NCBI GenBank assembly: GCA_022509165.1
Contig: JAFLTT010000003.1
Location: forward strand, 92,919-156,918
DNA: 64,000 nucleotides
Direction: 5' to 3'
DNA from: Muribaculaceae bacterium
GTDB taxonomy: Bacteria > Bacteroidota > Bacteroidia > Bacteroidales > Muribaculaceae
Every line of letters begins with the position of its first letter. Positions within the stretch are counted from its first letter, which is position 1. Below the pieces are notes generated by a model, which did no database searches, was not told where the DNA came from, and worked only from the letters and a program-made list of their open reading frames with translations. The translations under genes and the position numbers were made by a program. This document shows, in pieces, positions 4,215 to 19,100 of the stretch.

Positions 4215-4217
4215 ATC

Positions 4218-4610: not shown

Positions 4611-4613
4611 AAT

Positions 4614-4937: not shown

Positions 4938-5026
4938 TGAAAAATATTTATTCTTAGAGATAGGTTTATACTTTTACAAATATAGTCTTTTTAATATGTT
5001 TTAGGATATATGTAAGACTAATATTA

Positions 5027-5146: not shown

Positions 5147-5179
5147 TTTTCTCTTTTAATTTGATAACATTATTTAAAT

Positions 5180-5320
5180 ATGGTAACATTAATTATATTA
5201 TTAGCATTATTATGTTTATCTTCAATTTTACTACCCTGTTTAACTTTTTTGTTGTTAGTATATAAGGGAGATAAAGAATTAAAAAAAGAAAAAAGATTTA
5301 AAAACTTTGTCTATTATTAG
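5180..5320 (+). CDS. Possible 46-aa single-TM peptide
   Basis: Manual translation gives MVTLIILLALLCLSSILLPCLTFLLLVYKGDKELKKEKRFKNFVYY*. The stop lies 2 nt before the next ATG. It sits in an AT-rich region, so it could be fortuitous. Confidence 0.3.
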   Translation: MVTLIILLALLCLSSILLPCLTFLLLVYKGDKELKKEKRFKNFVYY

Positions 5321-5322
5321 AA

Positions 5323-6273
5323 ATGAATAAATCTTTTTTGAATAATAAAATCACCATGAAAGAAGATTTAGAATCAAGAATAGAAAAACTCAAGCAAAGA
5401 AGATACCGCTATCAAAATAGTGAGGGGAAATGGGGATATACAGATGTGTTTGGTAAAGTAGTAGAAACAGCTCATTTGGATTCTTTTCCAGATAATTCTT
5501 ACGATATTAAAGGTGCCAGAGAATTGGATACAAAACCTCCTTTAACTTATAGGGAATTAATTAACCAATATACTGAATATCCTTTGGGAAATAAAAAAGA
5601 AATTGAAGACTGGTTTGAATTAACAGATTGTGTTGAAAGATATTTTCCTAATGAGGAATCTGTGTCGCCTGAAAAAGTGGTTTCATTTGATAGTAAATAT
5701 GATGTTGTAAGAATAGACTATGGGAAGGTTGATATTGTAGATTCTGGATTCATAGGTTATGGTATCAAGGAAAAGAACAATTTAATAGCAGATTGTGAAT
5801 TTACTAACATTTACCCTTTTTCAGAAGGTTTAGCCCGAGTTGCTAAAACAGATCTTTTCGATAGACCATATTCTCCATTGTTCCGTAATTTAGAAAAACA
5901 AGATATTGAAAGGAATTTAGACACAAATAATAAGTTAATTTATGATAAAATCCTGAAAGAAAATGGAGAATTATATTGGGGATTTATCAACGAGAAGGGA
6001 GAGAAACAAATCCCTTTAAAATATTTTAATGCTTCAGATTTTCATGAGGAACTTGCAGCCGTTAATCGAAGCTGGGATAATGAAGAATGGGGTTATATAG
6101 ATAAACAGGATAATATTGTTATCCCTTTTAAATTTGATTGGGCTGGAGATTTTCAAGATGGTTTTGCAAGGGTTCTTTATGCAGGTCTCTATTATGTTAT
6201 TGACAAAGAAGGATTCTGTTACGAATCCTTTGATGAAATCGAAATGGGACAAGGAAGTAAATTCTATTTATAA
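5323..6273 (+). CDS. WG-repeat (KWG-type) protein
   Basis: Repeated 'KWGYTDVFGKVV', 'YWGFINEKGEKQIPLKY' and 'EWGYIDKQDNIVIPFKFDWAGDFQDGFARV' motifs. Confidence 0.75.
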   Translation: MNKSFLNNKITMKEDLESRIEKLKQRRYRYQNSEGKWGYTDVFGKVVETAHLDSFPDNSYDIKGARELDTKPPLTYRELINQYTEYPLGNKKEIEDWFELTDCVERYFPNEESVSPEKVVSFDSKYDVVRIDYGKVDIVDSGFIGYGIKEKNNLIADCEFTNIYPFSEGLARVAKTDLFDRPYSPLFRNLEKQDIERNLDTNNKLIYDKILKENGELYWGFINEKGEKQIPLKYFNASDFHEELAAVNRSWDNEEWGYIDKQDNIVIPFKFDWAGDFQDGFARVLYAGLYYVIDKEGFCYESFDEIEMGQGSKFYL

Positions 6274-6288
6274 AACCATACAACATCT

Positions 6289-6534
6289 ATGATAAACTGG
6301 CTTTATTATAAAGAAAAATTAAGACAAAAATGGATAAAATCTAAAGTAAGTAAGGTCTATTGGAATACTGTGCTTACTTTAGGCTGGGGACTCAAGATAA
6401 TACCAACTTCATATTGCATTAAGTGTCAAGACAACATAGGAAATTATTTATCTAATCTTACTTTTGTTGATAGATATACTAAATTTGATGACATTATGAT
6501 GCGATGGTACTCATTCAATTTTCATAAAATATAA
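6289..6534 (+). CDS. Hypothetical 81-aa protein
   Basis: ORF only, co-oriented and 15 nt after the previous stop. Confidence 0.35.
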   Translation: MINWLYYKEKLRQKWIKSKVSKVYWNTVLTLGWGLKIIPTSYCIKCQDNIGNYLSNLTFVDRYTKFDDIMMRWYSFNFHKI

Positions 6535-6584
6535 ATATGTTTTAAGTGCAAGATGTTTGTCTACTTTAATACAAATATTTTGAA

Positions 6585-7133
6585 ATGATATTAATAAAGA
6601 ATAAACGTTGTTCTCAGGAGAAGCTTCTAAATGAATATCCTGATGCTATTATAATTGACGTGACGAGTAAGGGAGAAGGTGAATGGCAGAAACTTTCTCC
6701 CTTCTATCCTCATGGTGGAATTCCTGTTCCGTTCAGTGATGAAGCAACTTCAATGAGTGTGGAAGGCATTTGGCAAGGTCTGAAAGTTTTTGAATCTACT
6801 GACATAGATAGAAACTCTTTTCGTAACGGAACAATGAAAGGAATTAAGCGTACCGTGAGAACTAATGGAAAATGTTTAGGACATAGAAAAGGAATAAACG
6901 GTAAAGAACTGTTAGGATATATTGAAGCCCGAAAAGAGATATATGTTCCGTCTTATAATTGGATATTGGAGAATAAATGTCAGGAACAAATCAAGAAAAT
7001 TAGAATAATGTCACGGTCAAAACCAATAATTCTTTTGGATTATGACACTAATGATGATGTAGAGAATCCGACCAAGCCATTATCCCATGCTTCTCTGATA
7101 AAGAAGTTTGTAGATAACCTTAAAAATGAATAA
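6585..7133 (+). CDS. Hypothetical protein with tentative NADAR-like motif spacing
   Basis: 'LSPFYPHGGIPVPF...SVEGIWQGLKVF' loosely parallels the NADAR/YbiA pattern 'LSNFYP...F.S.EH.FQ..KF'. This is by-eye similarity only. Confidence 0.3.
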   Translation: MILIKNKRCSQEKLLNEYPDAIIIDVTSKGEGEWQKLSPFYPHGGIPVPFSDEATSMSVEGIWQGLKVFESTDIDRNSFRNGTMKGIKRTVRTNGKCLGHRKGINGKELLGYIEARKEIYVPSYNWILENKCQEQIKKIRIMSRSKPIILLDYDTNDDVENPTKPLSHASLIKKFVDNLKNE

Positions 7134-7182
7134 TTAGTTTGAAAATGGTTTGAACCAAGAATCAGTTGCCTATTGGACGAAG

Positions 7183-7302
7183 CGTACATTTTACAAAGAT
7201 ATTATAAATAATAAATAATTGGAATAAAATGTACGTTTGAAAATAACCTATCCTTTACAAACTTCGACAATTCATTGACGGTATAAATTATAAGTGTAAA
7301 TT
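7183..7302. repeat. Junction inverted repeat C plus conserved downstream module
   Basis: Arms lie at 7183-7192 and 7226-7235. The 7226-7302 stretch matches 5069-5146 with 2 substitutions and a 1-nt indel. Confidence 0.85.
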
Positions 7303-7309
7303 AGTATTC

Positions 7310-8185
7310 ATGAAAGAAAAGCCGATTCAAGAAACAACTTCCACTTACTTCAACAATATTTTGATGAAAGCAATTGCTCCTAAATCAATTGAGGAGATTG
7401 ACCCTCAAATGATAAAGGATTTCAATAATGCAATTGATGATGCCTTTACAGATGATTCGGAAACAGTTAGAATAAGGTTGAAATATCTGATCCCATATAT
7501 TATCCAGAATATTGACTGGGTGGAATATGGAATTCCTCTTGAAGCATGGCAACTGAAATATTATTACCAAAGGGATAGGTTTTTGAAAATGACCCATCTT
7601 TCCTATGATGAATTCATGGATCATGAACTGCTTCAACAATCAATAGATGAACTTGGACTTGATCCCGCACCAGTCTTTGAATTCATTCTCTTCCTTTCCT
7701 ATTATTATGGATTGAGAGCAGATCTGAAATACTCATCTTACGAGCAACTTTCTAAATTGAAACAGGCATTAGAAGGTAATAATGGTGAAGTTTCTATGGA
7801 TGTTGTAGTAAACGGAAAACACTTCAAATTCAGTAACTCTAATTTTATCAAGACCTTGTTTTCAAACATTGATTCAGATAAATTGAATTACGGAGCATTC
7901 AGCAATAACTTTGAGGAAGGGAGTTCAAGAGAGAAAATAAGGGCATTGGATTATTATCTGATCAAAACATTGCTTGATTTTCTCCCTATCAAGAGCGAAA
8001 GGAAGAAAGGGAAATACACCCAGTCTGAAAGAAATTTCTCTTTATGTGTATTGAACTACTGTGGAAGATTGCAAGGAGATGAACCTGAAATAATCTGTTC
8101 CCAGTTCAACAATGCCACATTCGACAAACTCATGAGAGATTTTAAGGAAATAGACATTCCTTTTGCAATGGAGTTATTTCTTTAA
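7310..8185 (+). CDS. Hypothetical 291-aa protein
   Basis: Long ORF with protein-like composition. No motif recognised. Confidence 0.55.
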   Translation: MKEKPIQETTSTYFNNILMKAIAPKSIEEIDPQMIKDFNNAIDDAFTDDSETVRIRLKYLIPYIIQNIDWVEYGIPLEAWQLKYYYQRDRFLKMTHLSYDEFMDHELLQQSIDELGLDPAPVFEFILFLSYYYGLRADLKYSSYEQLSKLKQALEGNNGEVSMDVVVNGKHFKFSNSNFIKTLFSNIDSDKLNYGAFSNNFEEGSSREKIRALDYYLIKTLLDFLPIKSERKKGKYTQSERNFSLCVLNYCGRLQGDEPEIICSQFNNATFDKLMRDFKEIDIPFAMELFL

Positions 8186-8204
8186 AATTCAACAATTTAT
8201 AAAT

Positions 8205-8232
8205 GCGTAAATTTTTCTAAAAATTTTTACGC
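8205..8232. repeat. Compact variant of the junction hairpin (GCGTAAATTTTT-CT-AAAAATTTTTACGC)
   Basis: GCGTAAA/TTTACGC arms lie 19 nt after the stop at 8185. The arm sequence is related to GCGTACATTTT. Confidence 0.6.
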
Positions 8233-8244
8233 TGTTTTATGCTT

Positions 8245-8285
8245 GTGATACTTTATAATTTTGTACCGTCAAAAAGAAGTATCAC
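8245..8285 (+). promoter_or_regulatory. Hairpin (GTGATACTT/AAGTATCAC) enclosing a -7 box TAATTTTG and an inverted TTGACGGTA-type motif
   Basis: 9-bp arms at 8245-8253 and 8277-8285. The -7 match lies at 8256-8263, 38 nt upstream of the ATG at 8301. 8254-8272 is the reverse complement of the motif at 5118-5136. Confidence 0.45.
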
Positions 8286-8300
8286 TTAATTTTTTGTTAT

Positions 8301-8726
8301 ATGTCAGATTTTATTAACAACTTCAAAGCAGTTCATCACTTCATCAAGGGCATCTTCGCCAACTCCAAAGGAGAATATACCCTCACGTTCGTTCAGGATC
8401 CAGATGACAAATGGTACATTGATATGCCATGGTCGGGCAATCGAGCCAATCTTGAAATGGTGGCAGGAGCTGATGACCTCCTTACTTATCTCGATGAGGA
8501 GGGAAATCACAAGGTGACTATACATGTGGTTCCTTCTGAGACTCCTCTTGAAGTGGAAGATCATACAGAGCTCCGTCAGTTGGATAAATCAACTTTCGGT
8601 GGAAGTCATTATGACGCTACAGATTTTGAGGGATTCCGAATGAGTAAGATTTGGATATGTCCCGTTACCCTCTGTGTGTTGGGTTGTTATCCGAAATATC
8701 TTTACATTAAGAAAGTAGCCGCTTAA
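8301..8726 (+). CDS. Hypothetical 141-aa protein
   Basis: ORF with natural-looking composition. No motif recognised with certainty. Confidence 0.55.
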   Translation: MSDFINNFKAVHHFIKGIFANSKGEYTLTFVQDPDDKWYIDMPWSGNRANLEMVAGADDLLTYLDEEGNHKVTIHVVPSETPLEVEDHTELRQLDKSTFGGSHYDATDFEGFRMSKIWICPVTLCVLGCYPKYLYIKKVAA

Positions 8727-8736
8727 AAATCACTTA

Positions 8737-8760
8737 GGGGAGAATATTAAAGTTCTCCCC
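8737..8760 (+). terminator. GC-rich hairpin (GGGGAGAA-N8-TTCTCCCC)
   Basis: 8-bp perfect stem 10 nt after the stop at 8726. There is no clear U-tract. Confidence 0.4.
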
Positions 8761-8808
8761 TCCAAAAACAAACTATAGAAAAATTATAAATGTCAAAAAG
8801 AAAATATT

Positions 8809-9000
8809 ATGGCATGGTTAACAATAGATAAGAATGGAGAGGAATGGATATTTCAAAATGAACCTATATTAAAAAATGGAGAATGGTATGAAAAATATGT
8901 AATGCTACCTCCATTAGAATGTGTACAAGTTCCTGAAGGAACTATTGAAAAAATATTGGGATATAAATTAACATTAGAAACATCTCCTGTGGAGATTTGA
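8809..9000 (+). CDS. Hypothetical 63-aa protein
   Basis: ORF with protein-like composition (MAWLTIDKNGEEWIFQNEP...). Confidence 0.45.
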   Translation: MAWLTIDKNGEEWIFQNEPILKNGEWYEKYVMLPPLECVQVPEGTIEKILGYKLTLETSPVEI

Positions 9001-9048
9001 AGGTAATTGTGATGCAGTTGCCTTGATATAGAAATATTTATCCACTTA

Positions 9049-9786
9049 ATGAATATACTGACTTATAAAATTGAATCTATGGAAAATAAAAATAAAATGA
9101 CAGAAGAAGACAAGAATCGTAAGGCATATTACGCTCTGAAAGAGATACAGAGAAAGTACGGGTTTGACAATATTGCAAAACTCAGGGAATTTCATAAAGA
9201 AGTTTCAAAATTGTTCTTTGATTACGACCGAGAAGAAAATATATTTAAATGGGAGGGATTTGAACCCACTTTTAAAGAAATCTTCAAATTCTTCTCTGAG
9301 ATGGATACTATGGATGAATCTGAAATAGATAAAGCTTATAGTGGGTTAACGGGATTGTTAAATGAAGAAAAAATGACCCCTAAAATACTTGGATTCATTC
9401 ATGAAACCTATACTTCACGGTTATCGGAACCTGAGAAACTCCGCCGTAGAATTATAAAAGAAGGATTGGATATTGAAAAGACGCTCAGAGATTATTATAA
9501 AGATGAAATTGAAAAGAAATATAGGAATGTTTTTAAGCGAGTAATTGATTTTGCTTTTGAGTTCCCGAATGAATACTCTGATTGGACTAACCAAAGGTTA
9601 AATAAAGAGATTCATATGTACAAACGTCAATTTGAAGATATTGCTAACACAATGAGAGAGGCGAGCATTCCAAATAATATTATTAACGACTTTTTAAGAT
9701 ATGCTATTGTGATACCAGATTATAGGAAGAGAATTCAAGAAGCTTGGGAAAAACAAAGAGCAGAAAGACAAAGCCGAATGAATTGA
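9049..9786 (+). CDS. Hypothetical charged, helical 245-aa protein
   Basis: Long ORF. The start is uncertain, with an alternative Met 10 codons in. Confidence 0.55.
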   Translation: MNILTYKIESMENKNKMTEEDKNRKAYYALKEIQRKYGFDNIAKLREFHKEVSKLFFDYDREENIFKWEGFEPTFKEIFKFFSEMDTMDESEIDKAYSGLTGLLNEEKMTPKILGFIHETYTSRLSEPEKLRRRIIKEGLDIEKTLRDYYKDEIEKKYRNVFKRVIDFAFEFPNEYSDWTNQRLNKEIHMYKRQFEDIANTMREASIPNNIINDFLRYAIVIPDYRKRIQEAWEKQRAERQSRMN

Positions 9787-9796
9787 ATTATACCAA

Positions 9797-9851
9797 GCGT
9801 ACATTTTATGAAAAATATTATATTTGGTAATATTTAACGTAAAATGTACGC
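9797..9851. repeat. Junction inverted repeat D (GCGTACATTTT / AAAATGTACGC)
   Basis: 11-bp arms at 9797-9807 and 9841-9851, 10 nt after the stop at 9786. AAAATAACCTAT follows at 9856-9867. Confidence 0.85.
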
Positions 9852-9973
9852 TCCCAAAATAACCTATCAGAAGACTTAATGCAATAAAGGTTTGGAATAA
9901 CAGGTGAATTTTTTGATCGTCCTGTTTACCATTTATAAGGTTTCAGTATATTCTAATAATATGAAATAATAAA

Positions 9974-10654
9974 ATGAAGAAAACATTTGTAAATATACTT
10001 TCTATGGTTGCGATAAGTCTGTCGCTATTTATTCTAATGGCTTGTAGCAGAGATAAACAAATAACTGTTTGTTTTGTGCCATTGGATGGAATCAATAAAT
10101 CTCAGATAGAGCAATTGAAGAAAGAGTTCAAGGAAAATTTCACTGATAAAAGGAAGGAAGTTTTCTTTGTGGAGAGTCTGGAACATTTCAACACTCCTGA
10201 TTCATGCATCAATAAGAAGTATCATAGGTTTGAAGCAGGGACAATGCTCAAATTCCTGGATAATCAATTTGGAGAGTCAGCCAATCGGATAGCTGGTGAA
10301 AAGTCGGAAAATGGGTCTTCAGATTATTACATTATTGGCGTGACAAACAAAGATATTTCCACTCCCGTACATGGTAAAGAGAATTATGGAATACTTGGGT
10401 TATCAACATTAGGAGGAAATGTAAGTGTGATTTCCACTTACAGACTAAGAAATAAGAAAGAACTGTGGAAATTGGCAATGCATGAATTCGGTCATGGATA
10501 TTATAGTCTAAGACACTGCCCGAATGATGATCCGAGCTGCATCATGGCGGATGCTAAAGGTGGAAATCCCCATTTTGAATTGAAGGATACTTTATGTTCC
10601 ACCTGCTATGAAAAAAGCCTGAGACCAGATATCTTAAGAAAAATAATTAATTGA
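9974..10654 (+). CDS. Archaemetzincin-like (M54-type) zinc metalloprotease lipoprotein
   Basis: The lipobox is 'LMACS'. 'HEFGHGYYSLRHCPNDDPSCIM...(16 aa)...CSTC' fits HExxHxxGxxxCx4CxM-X17-CxxC apart from the G position. Confidence 0.75.
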   Translation: MKKTFVNILSMVAISLSLFILMACSRDKQITVCFVPLDGINKSQIEQLKKEFKENFTDKRKEVFFVESLEHFNTPDSCINKKYHRFEAGTMLKFLDNQFGESANRIAGEKSENGSSDYYIIGVTNKDISTPVHGKENYGILGLSTLGGNVSVISTYRLRNKKELWKLAMHEFGHGYYSLRHCPNDDPSCIMADAKGGNPHFELKDTLCSTCYEKSLRPDILRKIIN

Positions 10655-10679
10655 TTTTATTCATTTAAAAATAAAGATT

Positions 10680-10871
10680 ATGAAAAAGTTTATTTTTGCC
10701 GTTGTAGCAGTCATGGGATTGGGAGTTATATCATGTTCACATAACAATCAGAAGACTGAAGAAACAGCACAGATAGAGGAAGAAGAAATTGGATGTCTAT
10801 GTTGTCCTGTAGAAGAAGCTCCAGCAGATACATTGGATTTTGTTGCTCCAATTCCATAGATTAATCTATAA
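10680..10871 (+). CDS. Small lipoprotein (63 aa by manual translation); not in the supplied ORF track
   Basis: MKKFIFAVVAVMGLGVISCS... is a classic lipoprotein signal with a Cys. The ORF lies 25 nt after the metzincin stop. Its C-terminal part looks odd; see findings. Confidence 0.4.
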
Positions 10872-10885
10872 AGGGAAAAGTGAAA

Positions 10886-10940
10886 GCGTACATTTTTAGA
10901 TGTGATTTATAATAATTATAGATTAAATAAAAATGTACGC
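10886..10940. repeat. Junction inverted repeat E (GCGTACATTTTT / AAAAATGTACGC)
   Basis: 12-bp arms at 10886-10897 and 10929-10940, with a 31-nt AT-rich centre. Confidence 0.85.
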
Positions 10941-11003
10941 TCCTTTTATAGATAAAATTATTTGAATTAATTTTGAAAGTCAATATCTTAAAATCATTAC
11001 ACT

Positions 11004-11480
11004 ATGGCATCGATGGAAGAACTTCCTCCAAAACCTCCTATTATTTCTGGAACAGTAGGAGTCGCAAACTCATTTTCGAATAAACCTATGAGAGCTCCCG
11101 ATGTAAATCATTTAGAATTAGGAGATGAATTCACAATACCTGAGAATTTTCAAGTATTTACCCAAACTTTTAATGATCGTGAGGTTGAATATATTAGGGT
11201 AAAATTAAAAAATGGGAAATACAAAGATTTTTACCCAGCTATTTTTTATAAATTCAAATCCATTGTTGATGATGAAGGAATTCCAACAGGTAAGAGAGCA
11301 TATACGAAAGGTACGGCGACAGATTTATTTTTATTACAAGGTAATTTAATTAAAGGAATGGATGCTCTAAAAGGAAGGACTTTAAGAATTACAAATATTG
11401 AATTCGTTAAAATACTTCCTTATGGAGGTACTAATACCTATGCCCTGCATCCAGTTTTGACAATAGATTTAGTTGACTAA
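11004..11480 (+). CDS. Hypothetical 158-aa protein
   Basis: ORF only. A -7-like TAATTTTG lies at 10968-10975. Confidence 0.5.
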   Translation: MASMEELPPKPPIISGTVGVANSFSNKPMRAPDVNHLELGDEFTIPENFQVFTQTFNDREVEYIRVKLKNGKYKDFYPAIFYKFKSIVDDEGIPTGKRAYTKGTATDLFLLQGNLIKGMDALKGRTLRITNIEFVKILPYGGTNTYALHPVLTIDLVD

Positions 11481-11584: not shown

Positions 11585-11608
11585 AATCTGTAAACCAATC
11601 TGTAAACC
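11585..11608 (+). repeat. Tandem 12-mer AATCTGTAAACC x2
   Basis: Perfect tandem duplication 47 nt upstream of the tRNA-Lys-like gene. Confidence 0.8.
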
Positions 11609-11654
11609 GACTTAATATAATAAGGATAGTAAGCAGATACTAAGATAACTGTAA

Positions 11655-11771
11655 GATTCGTTAGCTCAGCAGGTTGCATTTGAAAGGAGAGCCGAAGGCG
11701 AGCCTTTTAAATGCGTAAGAGAAACAACACTTTTAATGTTGGGGTCCTGGGTTCGAGCCCCAGGCGGATCA
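11655..11771 (+). tRNA. tRNA-Lys(UUU)-like gene carrying a 39-nt hairpin insertion in the D-loop (117 nt; possibly non-functional)
   Basis: - Acceptor GATTCGT pairs with GCGGATC, using 2 G-U pairs.
- The D-stem 5' strand is GCTC.
- The anticodon arm is CAACA-CTTTTAA-TGTTG.
- The T-arm is CTGGG-TTCGAGC-CCCAG.
- An extra hairpin lies at 11676-11714. Confidence 0.6.
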
Positions 11772-11777
11772 CTCCCC

Positions 11778-11816
11778 AAAATTGCAATTAATTGTTAATC
11801 AATTAATTGCAATTTT
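11778..11816 (+). terminator. Long AT-rich hairpin plus T-tract after the tRNA-like gene
   Basis: AAAATTGCAATTAATTG-TTAAT-CAATTAATTGCAATTTT, followed by TTCTTTTCC. Confidence 0.6.
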
Positions 11817-12239
11817 TTCTTTTCCTGAATGGCCCTACCGTTGCACCACAGAATTCTGTAATTCCATTCCAGAATCGCCGAATCATTAGGATTTTATTCA
11901 AAATTTTACTTGTAGTGGATAAAAAACTTATAATTTTATCCAATACAGAGTAAATAATGGATAAATTAGAAAAATTTTTAATTTGCAATGTTTATTTCCG
12001 GTGGCCTCTGGTTTCAAGCCATCGGGTTTGGTTTTTTTGGGCCGGAGAATCTTCCCGGGGATTAGTTGCATAATAATTATATTTCCCTCTATCTTCTATG
12101 CTGAAACTCCCTATAGATCGCAAATAATTCATTAGTGTACCTTTTACTTTAAATAGGAGTTTAAGAAGTTTAATAACGGAATGGCCGGTAAAATCATTAA
12201 CTTTGTTAATTGAAATAGTAAACTCTTAATCAAGCATAA

Positions 12240-14012
12240 ATGGGAACAGAAGAACTGTCGAAAAGAACCACTGTAAACATTCAAGAGAAGGCAAATCTTA
12301 TTTGGGCTATAGCCGATAAGTTGGTAGGCACATACAAGCCCCATGAGTATGGAAATGTAATCCTTCCCATGTGCGTTATAAAGCGTTTTAGCGATACTTT
12401 GGCACCAACCAAGCAAAAGGTTATTGACACCAATGAAATGCTTGAGAAACGAGGATTAGCGGTTAAAGATGGGTTCTTACGTAGTGCCTCCGGTTATGAT
12501 TTCTATAACACTTCGCCTTTCACTTTTGAAGGTCTGCTCTCCGATCCTGAGAATATAGCCGACAATTTACGCAGTTATCTAAATCATTTCTCCAACAATG
12601 TGATTGATGTCATCGAAAAATTCGATTTCGACAAGGAGATAACCAAACTTGACAACAACGGCATCCTATACAACGTAATAGCCGAGTTCAACACAAAGAA
12701 GGCTTACATGGGTGCTGATGAGATTTCAGCGGTCGACATGGGCTATATATTCGAGGAATTAGTAAGGAAATTCTCTGAAAGTTATGATGAACAAGCGGGA
12801 GCACATTTCACAGCAAGGGATATTATTTATCTGATGGCTGAATTGCTTGTGGCTCCCAGACGTAAGGAACTTCAAGAGGAAGGTATAACAGCGAGTGTCT
12901 ATGACATGGCGATGGGTACTTCACAGATGTTGGATTGTTTGAGCGAAAAACTCCATGAGATTGATGAGGATGCACAGTTGACGGAGTTCGGTCAGGAACT
13001 TAATGAGCAGACCTTCGCCATTGCCAAAGCAAATATGCTTATCAAGGGAGGAAATGCCGAGAATATGAAGCATGGAAACACACTTTCCGATGATAAATTC
13101 AGTGGTTATAAATTCGATTACATTATATCTAATCCCCCATTCGGCATTGAATGGAAAAATGAGAAATCAGCAGTTGAAGCCGAGCATAAATTAGGTGAAG
13201 CAGGTCGTTTTGCCCCTGGACTTCCTGCGATCGGAGATAGTCAGCAACTCTTTGTTCTCAATGGTGTAGCCAAGTTGAAGGATAACGGTAGAATGGCTAT
13301 TATTCAGAATGGTTCTCCTTTATTCAAGGGAGACGCTGGAAGTGGAGAAAGTAATATAAGAGGTTATCTTTTGGAAAATGATTGGATTGAAGCCATTGTT
13401 CAGATTCCGAATGATATGTTCTATAACACTGGCATAGCAACCTATATATGGGTAATCACAAAGGAAAAATCAGCGGAAAGAGTTGGTAAGGTTCAACTGA
13501 TAGATGCTTCCAAATGTGGAGTTAAGAGAAGAAAATCTATCGGTAGCAAGAGAAACGAGTTCACGGATGAGTGTATATCCCTTATCTCCAAAGCTTACGA
13601 TGAGTTCAAGGATGCACATTATAAAGATGAAGAAATCGACATAGAGGTGGAATCCAAGATAAAGGATGTTGAGGATTTCAAATTTAGCAAAGTAACTGTA
13701 GATAGACCTATTACAGATGAAAATGGAAATCCCATTTTGAAGAAAGGGAAACCACAAGCCGACAGTGGGAAGAGAGATACGGAAACAATTCCATGGAAAG
13801 AAAAGATAGAAACCTACATGGAGAAAAATGTCTATCCCTACGCTTCCGACGCATGGATAGATGAGAAGAAAACCAAGATAGGTTATGAGATACCATTCAC
13901 AAGAGAGTTTTACAAATATGCTGCTCCGAGAAATAGCGAAGAAATATTTGCATCCCTTCAATCGCTTGATGAGAAAGAACAAGAATTAATGGCTAAAATA
14001 ATCGGGCGATGA
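12240..14012 (+). CDS. hsdM: Type I restriction-modification system, methyltransferase subunit M
   Basis: HsdM-type N-terminus, the 'NPPFG' catalytic motif, and an ATGA overlap with hsdS. Confidence 0.93.
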   Translation: MGTEELSKRTTVNIQEKANLIWAIADKLVGTYKPHEYGNVILPMCVIKRFSDTLAPTKQKVIDTNEMLEKRGLAVKDGFLRSASGYDFYNTSPFTFEGLLSDPENIADNLRSYLNHFSNNVIDVIEKFDFDKEITKLDNNGILYNVIAEFNTKKAYMGADEISAVDMGYIFEELVRKFSESYDEQAGAHFTARDIIYLMAELLVAPRRKELQEEGITASVYDMAMGTSQMLDCLSEKLHEIDEDAQLTEFGQELNEQTFAIAKANMLIKGGNAENMKHGNTLSDDKFSGYKFDYIISNPPFGIEWKNEKSAVEAEHKLGEAGRFAPGLPAIGDSQQLFVLNGVAKLKDNGRMAIIQNGSPLFKGDAGSGESNIRGYLLENDWIEAIVQIPNDMFYNTGIATYIWVITKEKSAERVGKVQLIDASKCGVKRRKSIGSKRNEFTDECISLISKAYDEFKDAHYKDEEIDIEVESKIKDVEDFKFSKVTVDRPITDENGNPILKKGKPQADSGKRDTETIPWKEKIETYMEKNVYPYASDAWIDEKKTKIGYEIPFTREFYKYAAPRNSEEIFASLQSLDEKEQELMAKIIGR

Positions 14013-15370
14013 TGGAGGAGAGAGTAAGGGAGATGAAAGACAGCGGTATTCCTTGGATTGGTGAGATTCCGAAGGATTGGGAAATAAAGCCTTTAAAATA
14101 TGTACTGAATAGACGAAACGAAAAAAATAATCCTATAAAATCTAAAGAAAGATTATCCTTATCTATAGATATAGGAATAACAAAATATGAAGATAAAACA
14201 ACTAATCTTGATAGATTCAAAGATGATTTTGAACAATATCAATTAGCATATCCTAATGACATTGTTTTAAACAGCATGAATATGATTGTGGGTGCTGTTG
14301 GTAAATCTAATTATTTTGGATGCGTCAGCCCTGTATATTATGTAATGACTCCTTCTAAGGAATCATATCCTGACTATTATGGTTATCTCCTAAATGTTCC
14401 CTCGATAAGAAAGATTTATCATAAACTTGGAAAAGGTATTTATGCAATTGAAAGAGGAGAAGGTCGTGTAAATACTTGCAGATTAAAAGTGTCATTCAAT
14501 GATTTTGGTAGAATTAATATTCCCTTTCCCCCAATACAAGAGCAAAAAACGATTGCTGAATTTTTGGATAGGAAATGTAGTGAAATAGATGAATTGGTGG
14601 CTCTTCAAGACAAGATGATTGAGGAATTGAAGGCTTATAAGCAGTCTATTATAACCGAAACTGTCACCAAAGGTCTTAATCCGAATTTACCCCTAAAAAA
14701 CAGTGGTATCGAGTGGATAGGGGAAATCCCACAGCATTGGGATGTTAAACCATTTAAAGCAGTTTATTCTCTTGGCAAAGGATTAACCATTACAAAAGCA
14801 GATTTAGTAGAAAATGGTATTTCCGTGATAAGTTACGGTCAAATACATTCAAAATCAAACAGCGGTACTTCTATTAAGGATGAATTAATTAGATATGTAC
14901 CTTCTATTTTTATAGAAAACAACCAAAATTGTCTTGTTAATCATGGAGATGTGATTTTTGCTGATACATCCGAAGATTTAGAAGGGTGTGGCAACTGCAT
15001 ATTCATTGATAGAGATATGCTTTTATTCGCTGGTTATCATACCATAATTGCATTTAATAAATCCAATTATAAAAACAAGTATTTTTCCTATCTTTTCAAA
15101 ACAGATTCATGGAGAACCCAATTACGAACACTTGTAAATGGGGTTAAATTATATAGCATACCACAGAAAACCCTTTCTTCTACTTATATTATCGTACCCC
15201 CTCTTTCCGAACAACAAGAAATAGCAGATTATCTTGACAATAAATGCTCTGAAATTGACAGCCTTATTGAGTTGAAGCAACAAAAGATAGAGGAATTGAA
15301 GGATTATAAGAAATCCATCATCTATGAATATGTAACTGGCAAAAAACAAGTGGAAATCAATGAAATATAA
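14009..15370 (+). CDS. hsdS: Type I R-M specificity subunit S
   Basis: Two target-recognition halves. Each is preceded by 'IPxxWE.KPLK'-type motifs and followed by conserved coiled regions ('EQ..IA.FLD.KCSEID.L'). Confidence 0.92.
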   Translation: MMEERVREMKDSGIPWIGEIPKDWEIKPLKYVLNRRNEKNNPIKSKERLSLSIDIGITKYEDKTTNLDRFKDDFEQYQLAYPNDIVLNSMNMIVGAVGKSNYFGCVSPVYYVMTPSKESYPDYYGYLLNVPSIRKIYHKLGKGIYAIERGEGRVNTCRLKVSFNDFGRINIPFPPIQEQKTIAEFLDRKCSEIDELVALQDKMIEELKAYKQSIITETVTKGLNPNLPLKNSGIEWIGEIPQHWDVKPFKAVYSLGKGLTITKADLVENGISVISYGQIHSKSNSGTSIKDELIRYVPSIFIENNQNCLVNHGDVIFADTSEDLEGCGNCIFIDRDMLLFAGYHTIIAFNKSNYKNKYFSYLFKTDSWRTQLRTLVNGVKLYSIPQKTLSSTYIIVPPLSEQQEIADYLDNKCSEIDSLIELKQQKIEELKDYKKSIIYEYVTGKKQVEINEI

Positions 15371-15542
15371 TTTTGCGGCCGAAAATTTTGACCACAAATT
15401 CCTAAATACTTACTTCAAAGCCGAATATATAGACTTTGAAAAATGGAAAGGTGATCAAAATTTTTGACCACCTACTAAGTATTCATTAATTTTCAAGATC
15501 AATATTTTTGACTTTGAAAACAAAATCAAAAACAATACATTA

Positions 15543-16199
15543 ATGGCAGATATAATCACAACCAGTGAAGTTAAGGATGTTATAATTCCTTTGAGAGGAG
15601 AAGAGGTAATTCTCGATTTTGAGGTTGCCAAACTATATGGTGTGGAGACCAAGCGAATAAATGAAGCAGTCAAAAATAATCCCGAAAAGTTTCCCACAGG
15701 CTTCGTTTTGGAATTAACAAAAGAAGAGTGGAAGGTTCTAAGGTCGAAAATTTCGACCTTAGAGGATAAAAATGGTAAAGGTAATCATCCGAAATATCTT
15801 CCAAAAGCCTTCACTGAAAGAGGATTATATATGCTTGCAACTATCTTGAAAAGCCCGATTGCAACACAAACCACATTGGCAATTGTAAATACCTTTGCAC
15901 AAGTTCGTGAAGTGAGAAGACAGATTCTTGCCATGCATGCCATGGAAGGTAAGATGGATAAGAAATCTCAGATGAATTTCCTTACAGGTTTCGGAAATCT
16001 ATTGACAGATATTCTGATGCCTGAAATGGAAACCTCCGACACTGAGACTTCCATGGAATTGAACTTCGTAATAGGCAAGTTAAAGCACACTGTGAAAAGA
16101 AGTAAAAAGAAAGATGAGGTAGGAAAATTAATCAGTATCGCCAAAAAGATGCTTGAAAAAGGATATTCAGAAGAGGATATTGCAGATATTTTGAAATGA
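15543..16199 (+). CDS. ORF6N/KilA-N-like DNA-binding domain protein embedded in the R-M operon
   Basis: 'VILDFEVAKLYGVETKRINEAVKNNPEKFP..F.LELTKEE' and 'PKAFTERGLYMLATILKS' are ORF6N hallmarks. An ATGA overlap links it to hsdR. Confidence 0.75.
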   Translation: MADIITTSEVKDVIIPLRGEEVILDFEVAKLYGVETKRINEAVKNNPEKFPTGFVLELTKEEWKVLRSKISTLEDKNGKGNHPKYLPKAFTERGLYMLATILKSPIATQTTLAIVNTFAQVREVRRQILAMHAMEGKMDKKSQMNFLTGFGNLLTDILMPEMETSDTETSMELNFVIGKLKHTVKRSKKKDEVGKLISIAKKMLEKGYSEEDIADILK

Positions 16200-19100
16200 T
16201 GGAAACCAAGGAAAAGAACTTTGAAGCAGACATAGAATCATATCTTCTTAATCAGGGAGGATATATAAAGGGTAATCAAGCCACTTACGATAAGGCAAAG
16301 GCAATTGATATGCCTGTGCTAATATCCTTCATAGAGAAGACCCAACCGAAAGTTTGGGAGCGGTATAAAAATGTCTATGGGGATAAGGCAGAGAAGCAAT
16401 TATACAATATATTCCAACAGAATGTAGATACCTACGGACTTATTTACGTATTGAGGAATGGTATCAAAGACAGAGGAATACCTATCAGATTCGCTTATTT
16501 CGCTCCCGCTTCAAATCTCAATTCTGAATTGGTAGAAAAGTACAATAGCAATATACTGACTGTTACAAGGCAATTCTCCTATTCCGAGCAAAATCACAAT
16601 ACAATTGACATGGTTATCTCATTGAATGGGATTCCCATTGTAGCAATTGAATTGAAGAACCAACTCACAAACCAATCCGTAGCCAATGCCAAAAGGCAAT
16701 TCATGGAAGACAGGGATGAAAGAGAGTTCTGTTTCCGTTTCAATAATCGTTTTCTCGTATATTTTGCCGTTGACCTATACGAAGTGGTAATGACCACTCA
16801 TTTGCAAGGCAAGAAGACTTATTTTCTTCCCTTCAATCAAGGTTCTAATGGGGCTGGTAATGTGGGTGACGGAGGAAATCCACCAAATTCCAATGGCTAT
16901 GTGACTTCTTACCTATGGGAGAAAGTATTGTCAAAAGACACATTACTCTCTATCCTTCAAAGATATATTAGCAAAGAGGTGAAAGAAAAAGTATCACTTC
17001 AAAACGGTAAACAAGTAAAGAAAAAAACAACAAGACTGATATTCCCAAGATACCACCAACTTGATGTTGTAGAAAAACTTGTAAACGAAACAAAAAACAG
17101 TAAGGAAGGCAAGAATTACCTAATCCAACATTCAGCAGGTAGTGGAAAGTCAAATTCAATCGCATGGTTGGCTTACAGATTGGCTTCATTGCATGACAAT
17201 GAGGATAAAGAGGTGTTTCAAACAGTGTTTGTTATCACCGACCGAAGGATTCTAAACCGACAACTGCAAGAGACGATATTGGGATTCGATCATTACGAAG
17301 GACAGATAGCCACAATAACGGATTCCGACAATTCTTCCGTATTAAGGGATGCTATAAACGATAAGAAAAGAATAATAATCACCACCCTTCACAGATTCCC
17401 TTTGATTTATAAGGAACTTGATAACCATAAGGGGAAGAAATTCGCAATAATAGTGGATGAAGCTCATTCAAGCCAAAGCGGAAAATCAGCGGAGAAACTG
17501 AAAGCGGCATTGGCAGATACCGAAAGTGCGGTGGCTGAAATGGCAGAGGTTTATGGAACAACCGAGGAGGAGATTCTTGATGAAATGGATGTGATGGTGG
17601 AGACACTTCTAACTCAAGGACAGCACAAGAACCAATATTTCTATGCCTTCACAGCCACTCCAAAGCCAAAGACCATACAGACTTTCGGAACTTACAAGGG
17701 TACGGATGAAGAAGGGAATCCTCAATATGAAGCCTTCCATCACTACAGCATGAGACAAGCCATAGATGAAGGTTTCATACTTGATGTGTTAGAGTTCTTT
17801 ACTCCCGTTGAGACTTCATATAAGATAGTGAAGGCGATAAAGGATAATCCAGAGTATGAAGAACCGCCAGCCACAAGAGCGATAAAGGCTTACCATGACA
17901 GCCATGAGTATGTGATTGAGCATACCGTGGAACTTATAGTAGAAAAGTTTAGGGATATAACTTTAAACAAAATGGATGGCAAAGCCAAAGCCATGGTTGT
18001 ATCACCGTCAAGGCTTCATGCAGTGAGATATTACCTTGCCATGAAGGAATATTGCAAAAAGAAAGGATATACGGATGTTAAGCCATTGGTAGCATTTTCC
18101 GATACTGTAACTCTTGATGGGAAAGAATATACCGAAGTGCAACTCAATTCCACGGACACTTATAAGATTTCAGAATCAGCACTTCCAATGTATTTCGAGA
18201 GTGATTTATATAATATTCTTATTGTAGCGGAGAAGTATCAGACTGGTTTCGATGAACCCCTATTACATACAATGTTCGTTCTAAAAGGATTGAGAGGGGT
18301 AAAAGCGGTGCAGACATTATCACGGCTTAATAGAAGTGCTAAAGGAAAAACCGACACTTTTGTATTGGATTTCGTAAATACAGCGGAAGATATTCAAGCA
18401 TCCTTCAAGCCATTCTATGAAGATACATTGCTTTCGGAACCAGTGGATGTCAATATAGTTTACAAGTATCTGAATAACTTGAAGGCTTATCATCTATGGG
18501 GAACGGAGACCGAAGAAAAGGTTTATGAAGTATTTAAGTCACAGCAGGATGATAAGGCAATGGGTAAACTTACAAGCCTTTTGAAGCCCGTATTGGATGA
18601 TTTCAATGCTCTTGATGAAGAAGACCGATTTAAGGTAAGATATTATGTAAGGGCTTTCATTCGCTTCTATGCTTTTATGGCACAGATAGAAAGGACATTT
18701 GATAAAGAACTTTTCAAGACCTATGTATTTTGTGAATATCTATTCAAGGTTTTACCAAAGAATCCTCATGAAAAAGTGGATTTGGAAAACAAATTAAGAT
18801 TGGAACACCATGTGTTCAAGGTGCAAGACACACAGAAGATAAACCTTTCCCCCACCAAAAAAGATAAGACAGTTAAGGGAGAAAACGGTGGTGACGGAAA
18901 AAAGGTTGAAGAAAAGAGGGATTTGCTTGACAATATCATTGACAAAATCAATCTGATGTATCAAGGGCAGTTCACGGAAGCCGACCGAGTAATTGTTGAG
19001 ACCATATTCGACAAAGCAAAGCAAGAGGAAAAGAAACTCAAGAAACAGGCGAAAAATTCCGATGTTAATATGTTCACCAACAACATATTCCCTAAGATAT

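What the first reader, a model, noticed from the sequence alone, without database searches (positions are those of the whole stretch)
11655..11771. tRNA-Lys(UUU)-like gene interrupted in the D-loop by a 39-nt structured hairpin
All canonical tRNA parts can be read: a 7-bp acceptor stem (two G-U pairs), the D-stem 5' strand, the anticodon arm CAACA-CTTTTAA-TGTTG, the variable loop and a perfect T-arm.

Between AGCAGGT and the D-stem 3' strand there is an extra hairpin at 11676-11714. It has a 12-bp stem (GCATTTGAAAGG/CCTTTTAAATGC, one G-U), a 3x3 purine-rich internal loop, and a GCC-GAA-GGC cap.

Bacterial tRNA interruptions that I know of are group I introns in the anticodon loop, not short D-loop hairpins. 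It could be a disabled tRNA, a tRNA with an unusual expansion, a miniature insertion, or a tRNA-like att or regulatory element of the mobile DNA.
Basis: seen in the sequence. Interest (0 to 1): 0.65.

Follow-up and report, generated by a model that had tools for sequence, protein, structure and literature searches.

The report
tRNA-like end of a mobile element
This is not a broken tRNA gene but the right-hand junction of a conjugative mobile element inserted in a gut Bacteroidales tRNA-Lys gene, and the element's own half of it carries a strongly conserved extra stem-loop that no paper found here describes.

Summary
Window 11655-11771 (+) reads as tRNA-Lys(UUU) with a 39-nt hairpin (11676-11714) in the D-loop. 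ARAGORN and Rfam reject it intact. ARAGORN calls tRNA-Lys once the hairpin is removed.

It is not a one-off insertion or a dispersed repeat. I found 81 copies (45 distinct) in Bacteroidales genomes and gut metagenomes, always in this tRNA-like setting. One subfamily mimics tRNA-Lys(UUU), the other tRNA-Phe(GAA), the two known targets of one Bacteroides ICE family.

The copies sit at the right end of the element. Upstream are DUF3871/RadC/PcfK/PcfJ genes and paired TGTAAACC repeats. Downstream DNA is unrelated between loci, and is often the next integrase. A Bacteroides finegoldii isolate shows a full element: normal tRNA-Lys, repeats, integrase, about 10 kb, repeats, hairpin copy.

The element supplies the 5' half with the hairpin. 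The 3' half is identical to the host tRNA.

The hairpin is more conserved than flanking element DNA (0.83 against 0.61 identity). It keeps pairing through compensatory and G-U changes, and appears unspliced in RNA-seq contigs.

Best reading: an attR junction that encodes a chimeric, non-decoding tRNA-shaped RNA. What the hairpin does is unknown.

The parts
11588..11608 (+). Two direct repeats CTGTAAACC (11588-11596 and 11600-11608), 12 bp apart. They are candidate arm-type binding sites for the integrase in the element's P arm.
   Evidence: Read. The same paired (T)GTAAACC / GTTAAACC repeats lie about 45-65 nt upstream of the tRNA-like start in nearly all family members. In B. finegoldii they lie on both sides of one element, next to the integrase and next to the hairpin copy. 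The integrases carry an Arm-DNA-bind_5 domain. Actual binding was not tested.
11644..11654 (+). Conserved box GATAACTGTAA directly abutting position +1 of the tRNA-like sequence.
   Evidence: Mean pairwise identity of the 12-nt box is 0.83-0.85, against 0.59-0.61 for the spacer before it. It is shared by the Lys and Phe subfamilies.
11655..11675 (+). Element-borne tRNA-Lys 5' part: acceptor 5' strand GATTCGT, U8 A9, D-stem 5' strand GCTC, D-loop AGCAGGT plus T.
   Evidence: the normal tRNA-Lys reads GATTCGCTAGCTCAGCAGGT. C11, T12, C13, A14, G18, G19 and T20 are invariant in 44 distinct family sequences, though TAGCTCAG..GGT was fixed by the genome search pattern.
11676..11714 (+). Conserved 39-nt stem-loop: 12-bp stem, tandem G-A/A-G internal loop, 3-bp cap with a GAA loop.
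   Evidence: Mean pairwise identity is 0.83 against 0.61 for the neighbouring spacer, in a set not selected on the hairpin.
11715..11729 (+). Linker GTAA, imperfect D-stem 3' strand GAGA, AA, and the anticodon-stem 5' strand CAACA. This is the last element-borne stretch before the shared core.
   Evidence: In the family, the 5' strands of the anticodon and acceptor stems vary without matching changes in the 3' strands.
11730..11771 (+). Core shared with the host tRNA-Lys(UUU): anticodon loop CTTTTAA, anticodon-stem 3' strand, variable loop, T-arm, acceptor 3' strand and discriminator A.
   Evidence: Positions 11724-11774 are identical to the normal tRNA-Lys of three other organisms. The stretch is repeated at 19327-19367 with 2 mismatches.
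11778..11826 (+). Terminator-like hairpin (17 pairs) followed by a T run.
12240..19234 (+). Type I restriction-modification island lying between the two tRNA-Lys copies: hsdM 12240-14012, hsdS 14009-15370, ORF6N-domain gene 15543-16199, hsdR 16196-19234. It has no integrase.
   Evidence: Pfam hits.
19298..19367 (+). Second, degenerate tRNA-Lys-like copy. It has the same 3' half from the anticodon loop onward but no hairpin and no recognisable D-arm. It is probably the outermost junction, followed by the host's own tRNA-Lys downstream sequence.
   Evidence: ARAGORN calls it but Rfam at gathering score does not. The family model gives 32 bits with the hairpin positions deleted. Its downstream sequence resembles that seen after a tRNA-Lys 3' end in another gut metagenome (loose end at 11789).
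56..11480 (+). Distal part of a Bacteroidales conjugative element: DUF3871 56-988, RadC 1098-1547, PcfK 1683-2102, PcfJ 2099-3391, then small cargo ORFs up to the 158-aa ORF at 11004-11480.
   Evidence: Pfam hits. DUF3871 lies upstream of the hairpin copy in 14 other loci. A homologue of the 158-aa ORF lies directly upstream in L014.

Best explanation
Window 11655-11771 is the right-end junction (attR-type) of a conjugative or integrative element that inserted into a host tRNA-Lys(UUU) gene by a tyrosine integrase.

Shown:
- The left part, up to the anticodon stem, belongs to the element. It holds two TGTAAACC repeats, a conserved box, and a tRNA-Lys 5'-half mimic whose D-loop carries a conserved 39-nt stem-loop.
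- The right part, from the anticodon loop to the 3' end, is identical to host tRNA-Lys sequence.
- The same design recurs in 81 copies from several Bacteroidales genera, always at the element's right end.
- A sister subfamily mimics tRNA-Phe(GAA).
- In one isolate genome, a single element is bounded by a normal tRNA-Lys plus integrase on one side and the hairpin copy on the other.
- Related copies appear in RNA-seq contigs in the tRNA sense, with the hairpin present.

Inferred:
- Strand exchange happens in or near the anticodon loop.
- The TGTAAACC repeats are the sites bound by the integrase's arm-binding domain.
- The junction is expressed as a chimeric, tRNA-shaped RNA of about 117 nt that does not decode.
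- The D-loop stem-loop is a selected RNA module. Its tandem G-A pairs and small GNRA-like cap suggest a recognition site for a protein. It probably also keeps the chimera out of translation while leaving it tRNA-like for processing and stability.
- What the RNA then does for the element is not known.
For: **Family**
- A genome scan with a pattern that did not specify the hairpin found 9 Bacteroidales members carrying the same hairpin.
- A hairpin-only scan of metagenomes gave 75 of 118 hits in the tRNA-like setting; the rest look like chance matches.
- A covariance model built without the window scores the window locus at 128 bits, E = 9e-38.

**Element end**
- Upstream genes are DUF3871, RadC, PcfK and PcfJ.
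- Upstream repeats and the box are conserved.
- Downstream sequence diverges right after the 3' end. In some loci it equals the sequence downstream of a normal tRNA-Lys (compared with L016 and L024).
- 18 of 45 loci with at least 1.5 kb of downstream sequence have a tyrosine integrase about 250 nt downstream.

**Complete example**
- B. finegoldii NZ_OY725919.1 reads: normal tRNA-Lys, TGTGTAAACC x2, integrase, about 10 kb, TGTGTAAACC x2, hairpin copy.

**Literature**
- One Bacteroides ICE family targets tRNA-Lys(TTT), and its relatives target tRNA-Phe(GAA) (10.1101/2020.06.09.142968; PMC7553746).

**Junction position**
- Copies 1 and 2 become alike exactly at the anticodon loop.
- Acceptor positions 6 and 7 are unpaired in 16 and 13 of 44 sequences, and the 3' strand does not change to restore these pairs within the Lys subfamily.
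- L062 has a foreign 3' acceptor strand that does not pair with its 5' strand.

**Hairpin under selection as a single strand**
- Across 21 distinct versions there are 205 Watson-Crick, 33 G-T and 3 A-C cells.
- The helix is 94.7% paired, and 3 of its pairs change on both sides.
- RNAalifold predicts it independently.
- Mean pairwise identity is 0.83, against 0.61 for the spacer and 0.45 downstream.

**RNA**
- Two mouse-gut metatranscriptome runs each hold a 194-nt contig (depth 96 and 86) that spans the hairpin form.
- Isolate RNA-seq contigs hold the Phe-type hairpin form at depth 5-7, against 203-279 for the normal tRNA-Phe.
Against: - The left end of the window's own element, where the normal tRNA-Lys and integrase should be, lies outside the window and was not seen.
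- The stretch between copy 1 and copy 2 has no integrase, so its status as a second, older element is only inferred.
- The crossover position is inferred from sequence patterns. A published relative was described with only 15-21 bp repeats at the tRNA 3' end.
- The RNA evidence is assembled contigs, not reads. DNA carry-over cannot be excluded, no transcript ends were mapped, and no promoter was identified.
- In some runs the hairpin region lies in kb-long contigs that include upstream element DNA. That fits read-through as well as a dedicated gene.
- About half of the hairpin positions were fixed by the metagenome search pattern, so conservation there is partly built in. The genome-scan set avoids this but is small (10 sequences).
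- No partner or function for the hairpin was found.
Confidence: 0.7

Rival explanations
1. The hairpin works at the DNA level. It is a protein-binding inverted repeat, a bend, or a spacer in the P arm that sets the distance between the arm repeats and the crossover site. Transcription would then be incidental.
For: It lies between the arm-type repeats and the core. In B. finegoldii, the insertion places the P-arm repeats about 125-150 bp from the anticodon loop. That is similar to the roughly 115-140 bp of the P' repeats on the other side (my count on the sequences).
Against: A spacer need not keep its sequence or its pairing. G-T mismatches greatly outnumber A-C ones (33 against 3), which points to one strand folding rather than a double-stranded palindrome. 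Tandem G-A pairs with GNRA-type caps (GTAA, GCAA) are RNA motifs. A DNA role would not explain why the acceptor 5' strand tracks the target tRNA (Lys or Phe) from position +1.
Confidence: 0.2
2. It is a working, decoding tRNA-Lys with an expanded D-loop that the element carries to supplement or replace the host tRNA.
For: The anticodon arm, T-arm, discriminator A73, U8, A14 and G18-G19 are intact. Mobile elements that must bring their own tRNA are known in mycobacteriophages (PMC10865867).
Against: Here the D-stem has only 3 of 4 pairs. Many members are unpaired at acceptor positions 6 and 7. The hairpin form is at a few percent of the depth of the normal tRNA-Phe in isolate RNA-seq contigs. 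In the one complete example, a normal tRNA-Lys is regenerated at the other end, so no replacement is needed. I know of no decoding tRNA with a 43-nt insertion in the D-loop.
Confidence: 0.05
3. It is a decaying pseudo-tRNA hit by a neutral insertion such as a small mobile repeat.
For: Gene finders reject it. The window copy has extra changes in the linker and at C25.
Against: The hairpin sits at the same place in 81 copies from several genera and two tRNA types. It is never found elsewhere, and it is better conserved than the element DNA next to it.
Confidence: 0.03
4. It is a decoy or substitute for tRNA-Lys-cleaving defence nucleases, linked to the neighbouring type I restriction-modification system.
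For: From general knowledge, the anticodon nuclease PrrC cleaves tRNA-Lys(UUU) and sits between hsdS and hsdR in E. coli. Here an unrelated ORF6N-domain gene sits between hsdS and hsdR.
Against: The tRNA identity follows the element's integration target: a Phe version carries the same hairpin. The restriction-modification island is absent from the other loci. No PrrC-like domain was found.
Confidence: 0.02

Closest known systems
Displaced tRNA fragment at the far end of a genomic island integrated in a tRNA gene (Islander principle, PMC4383910; anticodon-centred attP class)
   Same: A tyrosine integrase targets a tRNA gene. A regenerated normal tRNA lies beside the integrase, and a repeat of the tRNA 3' part marks the other end.
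   Different: The far end here is not a bare 3' fragment. The element supplies a matching 5' half, so the junction reads as a whole tRNA-like gene. That half carries a conserved structured insertion.
Bacteroides ICE family of the B. plebeius porphyran element (tRNA-Lys(TTT) target) and its tRNA-Phe(GAA)-targeting relatives
   Same: The same two target tRNAs, the same host group, and a tdk-tRNA-Lys neighbourhood in B. finegoldii as described for B. xylanisolvens.
   Different: Those papers report short direct repeats of 15-21 bp. In the passages I read they do not mention a tRNA-like junction or a hairpin. I did not test whether the window's element is a close relative, for example through TraJ, which lies outside the window.
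tRNA-dependent lysogeny in mycobacteriophages (PMC10865867)
   Same: A mobile element that targets a tRNA-Lys(TTT) gene and carries tRNA sequence of the same type.
   Different: There the phage tRNA is a normal, required, decoding tRNA encoded elsewhere in the genome, and the host tRNA is destroyed. Here the host tRNA is regenerated and the element's copy is a hairpin-bearing chimera at the junction.
tRNA-like non-coding RNAs such as bacterial YrlA (Y RNA-like) and mascRNA (from general knowledge)
   Same: tRNA-shaped RNAs that are not used for decoding and carry an extra helix or module.
   Different: There is no Rfam match. In YrlA the long helix replaces the anticodon arm. Here the anticodon arm is intact and the extra helix leaves from the D-loop. 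No Rsr/Ro gene was seen nearby.

Membership tests
Canonical bacterial tRNA (Rfam RF00005) | Reaches the family's gathering score, or is called by a tRNA finder | tested here: not met
   No hit at gathering score. Only a partial 24.3-bit match against a 29-bit threshold. ARAGORN finds nothing in the intact locus, even with intron search switched on.
Canonical bacterial tRNA (Rfam RF00005) | Cloverleaf with a 7-bp acceptor stem, 5-bp anticodon stem with 7-nt loop, 5-bp T-stem with TTCGA loop, and U8, A14, G18, G19 | tested here: met
   Read directly from the sequence. ARAGORN calls tRNA-Lys(ttt) after excision.
Canonical bacterial tRNA (Rfam RF00005) | 4-bp D-stem and a D-loop of about 7-11 nt | tested here: not met
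   The D-stem has 3 of 4 pairs (G10 opposite A). The D-loop is 51 nt because of the 43-nt insertion.
attR-type junction of a tRNA-targeting integrative element | Direct repeat of the tRNA 3' part at both ends of the inserted DNA | tested here: met
   Window 11731-11765 and 19327-19361. B. finegoldii 34778-34818 and 24784-24824 are identical.
attR-type junction of a tRNA-targeting integrative element | Intact target tRNA next to a tyrosine integrase at the other end of the same element | tested here: inconclusive
   Met in the B. finegoldii example. For the window's own element that end lies beyond position 1 and could not be reached.
attR-type junction of a tRNA-targeting integrative element | Mobile-element genes on the inner side; unrelated DNA on the outer side in different genomes | tested here: met
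attR-type junction of a tRNA-targeting integrative element | Excision that restores the empty site and forms a circular attP | not testable with these tools
   This needs PCR across the junctions, or read-level data from a strain that carries the element.
Dispersed miniature repeat (MITE-like) | Many copies of the inserted sequence in unrelated settings | tested here: not met
   One copy in the window. In metagenomes every true match lies inside the tRNA-like setting.
tRNA intron (bacterial group I, or archaeal bulge-helix-bulge) | Group I: insertion in the anticodon loop with a fold of more than 200 nt. Archaeal: two 3-nt bulges on opposite strands separated by 4 bp. Either: a spliced product. 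| tested here: not met
   The insertion is 43 nt in the D-loop, and its 3x3 loop is symmetric. There is no Rfam intron hit. The only reads that skip the hairpin carry AGAGC, the sequence of the separate normal tRNA-Lys gene. A spliced product of the locus read (L030) would lack that C.
Kink-turn | An asymmetric 3-nt bulge followed by tandem G-A pairs | tested here: not met
   Tandem G-A/A-G pairs are present, but the loop is symmetric: 3x3, or 2x2 where the first position is C-G.
New family defined here: Bacteroidales element-end tRNA-like sequence with a D-loop stem-loop | High score against a covariance model built from the other members | tested here: met
   128 bits, E = 9e-38, full length 1-117; the window sequence was left out of the model.

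The most novel reading that the evidence does not exclude
The element-encoded, tRNA-shaped RNA takes an active part in site-specific integration or excision. It might help the integrase complex recognise or pair with the target tRNA gene, or report the state of the junction. This would explain three things: why its 5' half tracks the target tRNA (Lys or Phe) from exactly position +1; why the stem-loop is so conserved; and why it sits inside the P arm. It would be an RNA component in a tyrosine-integrase system.
Probability: 0.1. Interest if true: 0.85.

Novelty: new variant of a known kind. Interest (0 to 1): 0.6.

Why it matters
Elements that insert into tRNA-Lys and tRNA-Phe move polysaccharide-utilisation genes among human gut Bacteroides; the restriction-modification island next to this window's junction sits at the same kind of site.

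A conserved, structured and apparently transcribed tRNA mimic built into their attachment site would be a new feature of how they are organised. It also gives a sharp sequence marker for their right ends, which gene finders currently miss or, as with copy 2, miscall as a tRNA.

If the RNA acts in recombination or its control, it would add an RNA player to a process thought to need only proteins. If it does not, it is still a natural example of a large helix tolerated in the tRNA D-loop.

Tried and rejected
- **Rfam, whole window and close-up:** no family apart from a partial tRNA match. Weak hits such as rteR and miRNAs are the terminator hairpin and chance.
- **Splicing:** the "skips 48" joints in RNA runs turned out to be the separate normal tRNA-Lys gene.
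- **RNA evidence for the window's exact sequence:** only one other DNA metagenome holds it.
- **Mouse-gut "RNA-Seq" runs:** only kb-long contigs, so uninformative about a small RNA.
- **Promoter:** the sigma-70-type scan gave nothing convincing. I also saw no clear Bacteroides-type -7 box by eye, so the transcript start is unknown.
- **Conserved neighbouring gene that might partner the hairpin:** the upstream ORFs differ between loci (DUF4595 lipoproteins and others).
- **Phage and plasmid collections:** one useful hit, the mislabelled B. finegoldii record; otherwise only tRNA 3' halves.
- **Literature:** six searches found no description of this hairpin.
- **Kink-turn, bulge-helix-bulge and group II domain 5 resemblances:** rejected on geometry.
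- **Decoy for anticodon nucleases:** rejected because a Phe version exists.
- **Crossover position from T-stem variants against downstream flanks:** the variants do not sort cleanly.
Full report
**1. Observation**

It has:
- a 7-bp acceptor stem with two G-U pairs
- U8 A9
- the D-stem 5' strand GCTC
- the D-loop AGCAGGT
- a 39-nt hairpin at 11676-11714: a 12-bp stem with one G-U, an AGA/GAG internal loop, and a GCC-GAA-GGC cap
- a perfect anticodon arm, CAACA-CTTTTAA-TGTTG
- a 5-nt variable loop
- a perfect T-arm
- discriminator A

The only flaw in the description is the D-stem 3' strand. It is GAGA (11719-11722), which gives 3 of 4 pairs, and it is followed by two A residues instead of one.

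The 117 nt fold at -43.1 kcal/mol, z = -4.05. The 39-mer is unique in the window.

ARAGORN and Rfam do not call the intact locus. Rfam's tRNA model gives only a partial 24.3-bit match, below its 29-bit threshold. After removing almost any 30-50 nt from the D-loop, ARAGORN calls tRNA-Lys(ttt).

**2. A second copy, and the normal gene**

ARAGORN also calls a 70-nt tRNA-Lys at 19298-19367; Rfam does not.
- It shares with the first copy everything from the anticodon loop to the 3' end, with 2 mismatches. Nothing recognisable is shared before that point.
- Between the two copies lies a type I restriction-modification operon: hsdM, hsdS, an ORF6N-domain gene and hsdR.
- To the left of copy 1 lie DUF3871, RadC, PcfK and PcfJ, genes typical of the distal end of Bacteroidales conjugative elements.

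Laying contigs of other runs on the locus showed the normal tRNA-Lys of three organisms: GATTCGC TA GCTC AGCAGGT AGAGC A CAACA..., identical to the window from 11724 to 11774. Copy 1 is therefore that tRNA with three changes: C7 to T, a 43-nt insertion (11675-11717), and C25 to AA.

**3. It is a family**

I scanned one genome per species for a tRNA D-arm, a gap of 30-60 nt, and a UUU anticodon loop plus T-arm. The pattern did not specify the inserted sequence.
- The scan gave 13 loci.
- Nine are Bacteroidales with the same hairpin at the same place: Bacteroides spp., B. faecichinchillae, Muribaculum caecicola and Muribaculaceae, plus one scaffold labelled Staphylococcus that is probably contamination.

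A hairpin-only pattern scanned over metagenome contigs gave 115 loci, and two more from viral contigs.
- 75 of 118 matches lie in the tRNA-like setting.
- The rest are mostly GC-rich chance matches.

In all there are 81 copies and 45 distinct sequences. Two subfamilies exist:
- One mimics tRNA-Lys(UUU).
- The other mimics tRNA-Phe(GAA), with acceptor strand GGTGCAA, D-loop AGTTGGT, the same hairpin, and then the tRNA-Phe anticodon arm, T-arm and 3' end.

The normal tRNA-Phe of an isolate reads GGTGCCA TAGCTCAGTTGGT. So the Phe-type 5' half is a near copy of its own target.

A covariance model built from 33 members without the window scores the window locus at 128 bits (E = 9e-38, full length). 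It scores copy 2 at 32 bits with the hairpin positions deleted.

**4. Where the family sits**

*Upstream.* All members share three features:
- two direct repeats, (C)TGTAAACC or GTTAAACC, 11-12 bp apart, about 45-65 nt before position +1
- a variable spacer
- a conserved box, GATAACTG(Y)TAAG, that abuts +1

In the window these are at 11588-11608 and 11644-11654. Upstream genes are element genes: DUF3871 in 14 loci, RadC, and a homologue of the window's 158-aa ORF in L014.

*Downstream.* Sequences diverge directly after the 3' end. In L016 and L024 the downstream sequence equals that found after a normal tRNA-Lys in organism A. In 18 of 45 loci with at least 1.5 kb of downstream sequence, a tyrosine integrase gene starts about 250 nt downstream on the same strand.
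- These integrases are 25-100% identical to each other.
- They carry Arm-DNA-bind_5, SAM-like and catalytic domains.
- This fits tandem arrays of different elements at one tRNA.

**5. A complete example**

A BLAST search of plasmid records found B. finegoldii NZ_OY725919.1. It is labelled a plasmid but carries dnaE, frr and pyrH, so it is chromosomal. Read in the direction of the tRNA, it runs:
- tdk, then an AI-2E transporter gene
- a normal tRNA-Lys(ttt) at 34777-34850
- a terminator, then TGTGTAAACC twice
- an integrase gene (33481-34674)
- about 10 kb holding a RadC-like JAB gene, a recombinase and small ORFs
- TGTGTAAACC twice
- the hairpin tRNA-like copy at 24784-24900 (131 bits)
- the next integrase gene, then RteC and further genes

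One element thus has the same repeats in both arms. A regenerated tRNA lies beside its integrase, and the hairpin copy lies at its far end.

This is the layout expected for islands in tRNA genes (PMC4383910). It also matches published accounts: Bacteroides ICEs insert at a tRNA-Lys(TTT) gene, next to tdk in the B. xylanisolvens case, and close relatives insert at tRNA-Phe(GAA) (10.1101/2020.06.09.142968; PMC7553746).

**6. Where the junction lies**

Four observations place the boundary between element and host sequence in or near the anticodon loop.
- Copies 1 and 2 become alike exactly there.
- In the family, the 5' strands of the acceptor and anticodon stems vary while the 3' strands stay fixed. 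Acceptor positions 6 and 7 are unpaired in 16 and 13 of 44 sequences.
- L062 has a different 3' acceptor strand, GCGGGCA, that does not pair with its 5' strand.
- L004 carries a scar in which a tRNA-Lys is followed by a second copy starting at ACAACACTTTTAA.

This is inference. In B. finegoldii the identity block runs from A21 to two bases past the 3' end, so the crossover could lie anywhere within it.

**7. The hairpin is selected, and as a single strand**

- Among 21 distinct hairpins, stem cells are 205 Watson-Crick, 33 G-T, 3 A-C and 11 other.
- Several positions switch between A-T, C-G, T-A and G-C.
- On alignment A2 the lower helix is 94.7% paired, and 3 of its pairs change on both sides. 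The whole structure is 90.0% paired, against 83.2% in shuffles (0 of 500 reach the observed value) and at most 57.6% when the partners are slid.
- RNAalifold predicts the hairpin, anticodon and T helices on its own.
- The cap varies between GCC-GTA-GGC, GCC-GAA-GGC, GC-GTAA-GC and GC-GCAA-GC. The flanking tandem G-A/A-G pairs are kept, also in the genome-scan set where they were not part of the search.

In the set not selected on the hairpin (10 sequences), mean pairwise identities are:

| Segment | Identity |
|---|---|
| D-arm | 0.92 |
| 12-nt box | 0.85 |
| Hairpin | 0.83 |
| Upstream spacer | 0.61 |
| Downstream | 0.45 |

The D-arm figure is inflated, because TAGCTCAG..GGT was fixed by the genome search pattern.

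The excess of G-T over A-C mismatches argues against a plain double-stranded palindrome. It favours folding of the + strand, as RNA or, less likely, as single-stranded DNA. Part of the G-T count comes from one inherited position, so the number of independent events is smaller than the cell count.

**8. RNA**

- For a Lys-type member (L030), two mouse-gut metatranscriptome runs each hold one 194-nt contig, at depth 96 and 86. It runs from 23 nt before +1, through the hairpin, to 54 nt past the 3' end.
- A gut metatranscriptome holds a 1703-nt contig (depth 88) that runs from upstream element DNA into the hairpin.
- For a Phe-type member (L026), isolate RNA-seq contigs hold the hairpin form at depth 7 and 4.6, against 279 and 203 for the normal tRNA-Phe.
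- The reads that skip 48 nt carry AGAGC, which belongs to the normal tRNA-Lys gene and not to a spliced product.

These are assembled contigs. They show presence, not transcript ends, and DNA carry-over cannot be excluded. I found no convincing promoter.

**9. Explanation and rivals**

The att-junction reading is well supported. For the hairpin I favour an RNA-level role: the junction would be expressed as a chimeric, tRNA-shaped, non-decoding RNA, with the D-loop stem-loop as a selected recognition module. Two features are hard to explain otherwise:
- The 5' half matches the target tRNA from exactly +1 in both subfamilies, although recombination does not need it.
- The hairpin is almost identical between Lys and Phe types while the spacer beside it has diverged.

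A DNA-level role as a spacer or binding site in the P arm remains possible.

A decoding tRNA is unlikely. The stems are weakened, the contig depth is low, and a normal tRNA is regenerated at the other end.

A neutral insertion or MITE is contradicted by the distribution and conservation.

A decoy for tRNA-Lys nucleases is contradicted by the Phe version.

**10. Novelty**

Six literature searches found no description. Rfam has no matching family.

One caution: in the RefSeq record of B. finegoldii, the locus-tag series skips a number at both tRNA places (RS09165 and RS09115). The PLSDB table omits RNA genes and pseudogenes. RefSeq may therefore annotate something at the hairpin copy.

I rate it a new variant of a known kind: a tRNA-gene attachment site with an element-borne, structured tRNA-mimic half.

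Noticed in passing
window 15543-16199 (+): An ORF6N-domain gene (218 aa) sits between hsdS and hsdR of the type I restriction-modification operon. From general knowledge, that is the position of the anticodon nuclease gene prrC in the E. coli prr locus. Its C-terminal half has no Pfam match.
   Followed up: partly
window 19298-19367 (+): ARAGORN calls this a 70-nt tRNA-Lys(ttt), but Rfam does not, and it has no D-arm. It looks like a degenerate att remnant that an annotation pipeline would miscall as a tRNA. Just upstream, CTGTGTAAAGG resembles the arm repeat.
   Followed up: partly
L005 2420-2523 (+), Oscillospiraceae MAG WRFS01000077.1: A Firmicutes tRNA-Lys-like sequence also has a D-loop insertion. 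It differs from the Bacteroidales one (AAGAGCCGAAAGGCGAAG plus GCCTTTTGGC) but contains the same GAGCC-loop-GGCGA motif. It has no matching acceptor 5' strand and is preceded by GTAAAG.
   Followed up: no
L022, L031, L032, L051, L122 (contigs of ERZ17385xx assemblies): A group of non-tRNA hits shares a very similar hairpin core (TTTGAAAAGGCGAGCCGCAGGCGAGCCTTTTTAA) nested in a longer inverted repeat (CCGGCATTTCCAAGTCC ... GGACTTGGAAATGCCGG). This may be an unrelated structured element that uses the same tandem G-A motif.
   Followed up: no
L133/L134 = NZ_OY725919.1 (B. finegoldii 'plasmid 17', 86 kb): The record is labelled a circular plasmid but carries dnaE, frr, pyrH, rsgA, hflX and tdk. It is a chromosomal piece. 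It holds at least three integrase genes around the tRNA-Lys site.
   Followed up: partly
L004 5203-5300 (-), Bacteroidia MAG: A tRNA-Lys is followed directly by a second copy of its own 3' half, starting at ACAACACTTTTAA. It looks like the scar of an element whose interior was lost.
   Followed up: no
L124 and L097, about 60-90 nt downstream of the hairpin copy: GTTAAACC / GTAAACC repeats appear again downstream, just before an integrase gene. They would be the P' arm of a second element in a tandem array.
   Followed up: partly
L003 (Muribaculum caecicola NZ_SSTG01000368.1): The hairpin copy lies on a 311-nt contig whose name gives a coverage of 1189. This hints at several copies per genome or an amplified form.
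   Followed up: no
window 20441-21730 (+): A 429-aa ORF with a signal-peptide-like start and no Pfam match lies just outside the last tRNA-Lys copy. It is not an integrase (no BLAST match to the family's integrases).
   Followed up: partly
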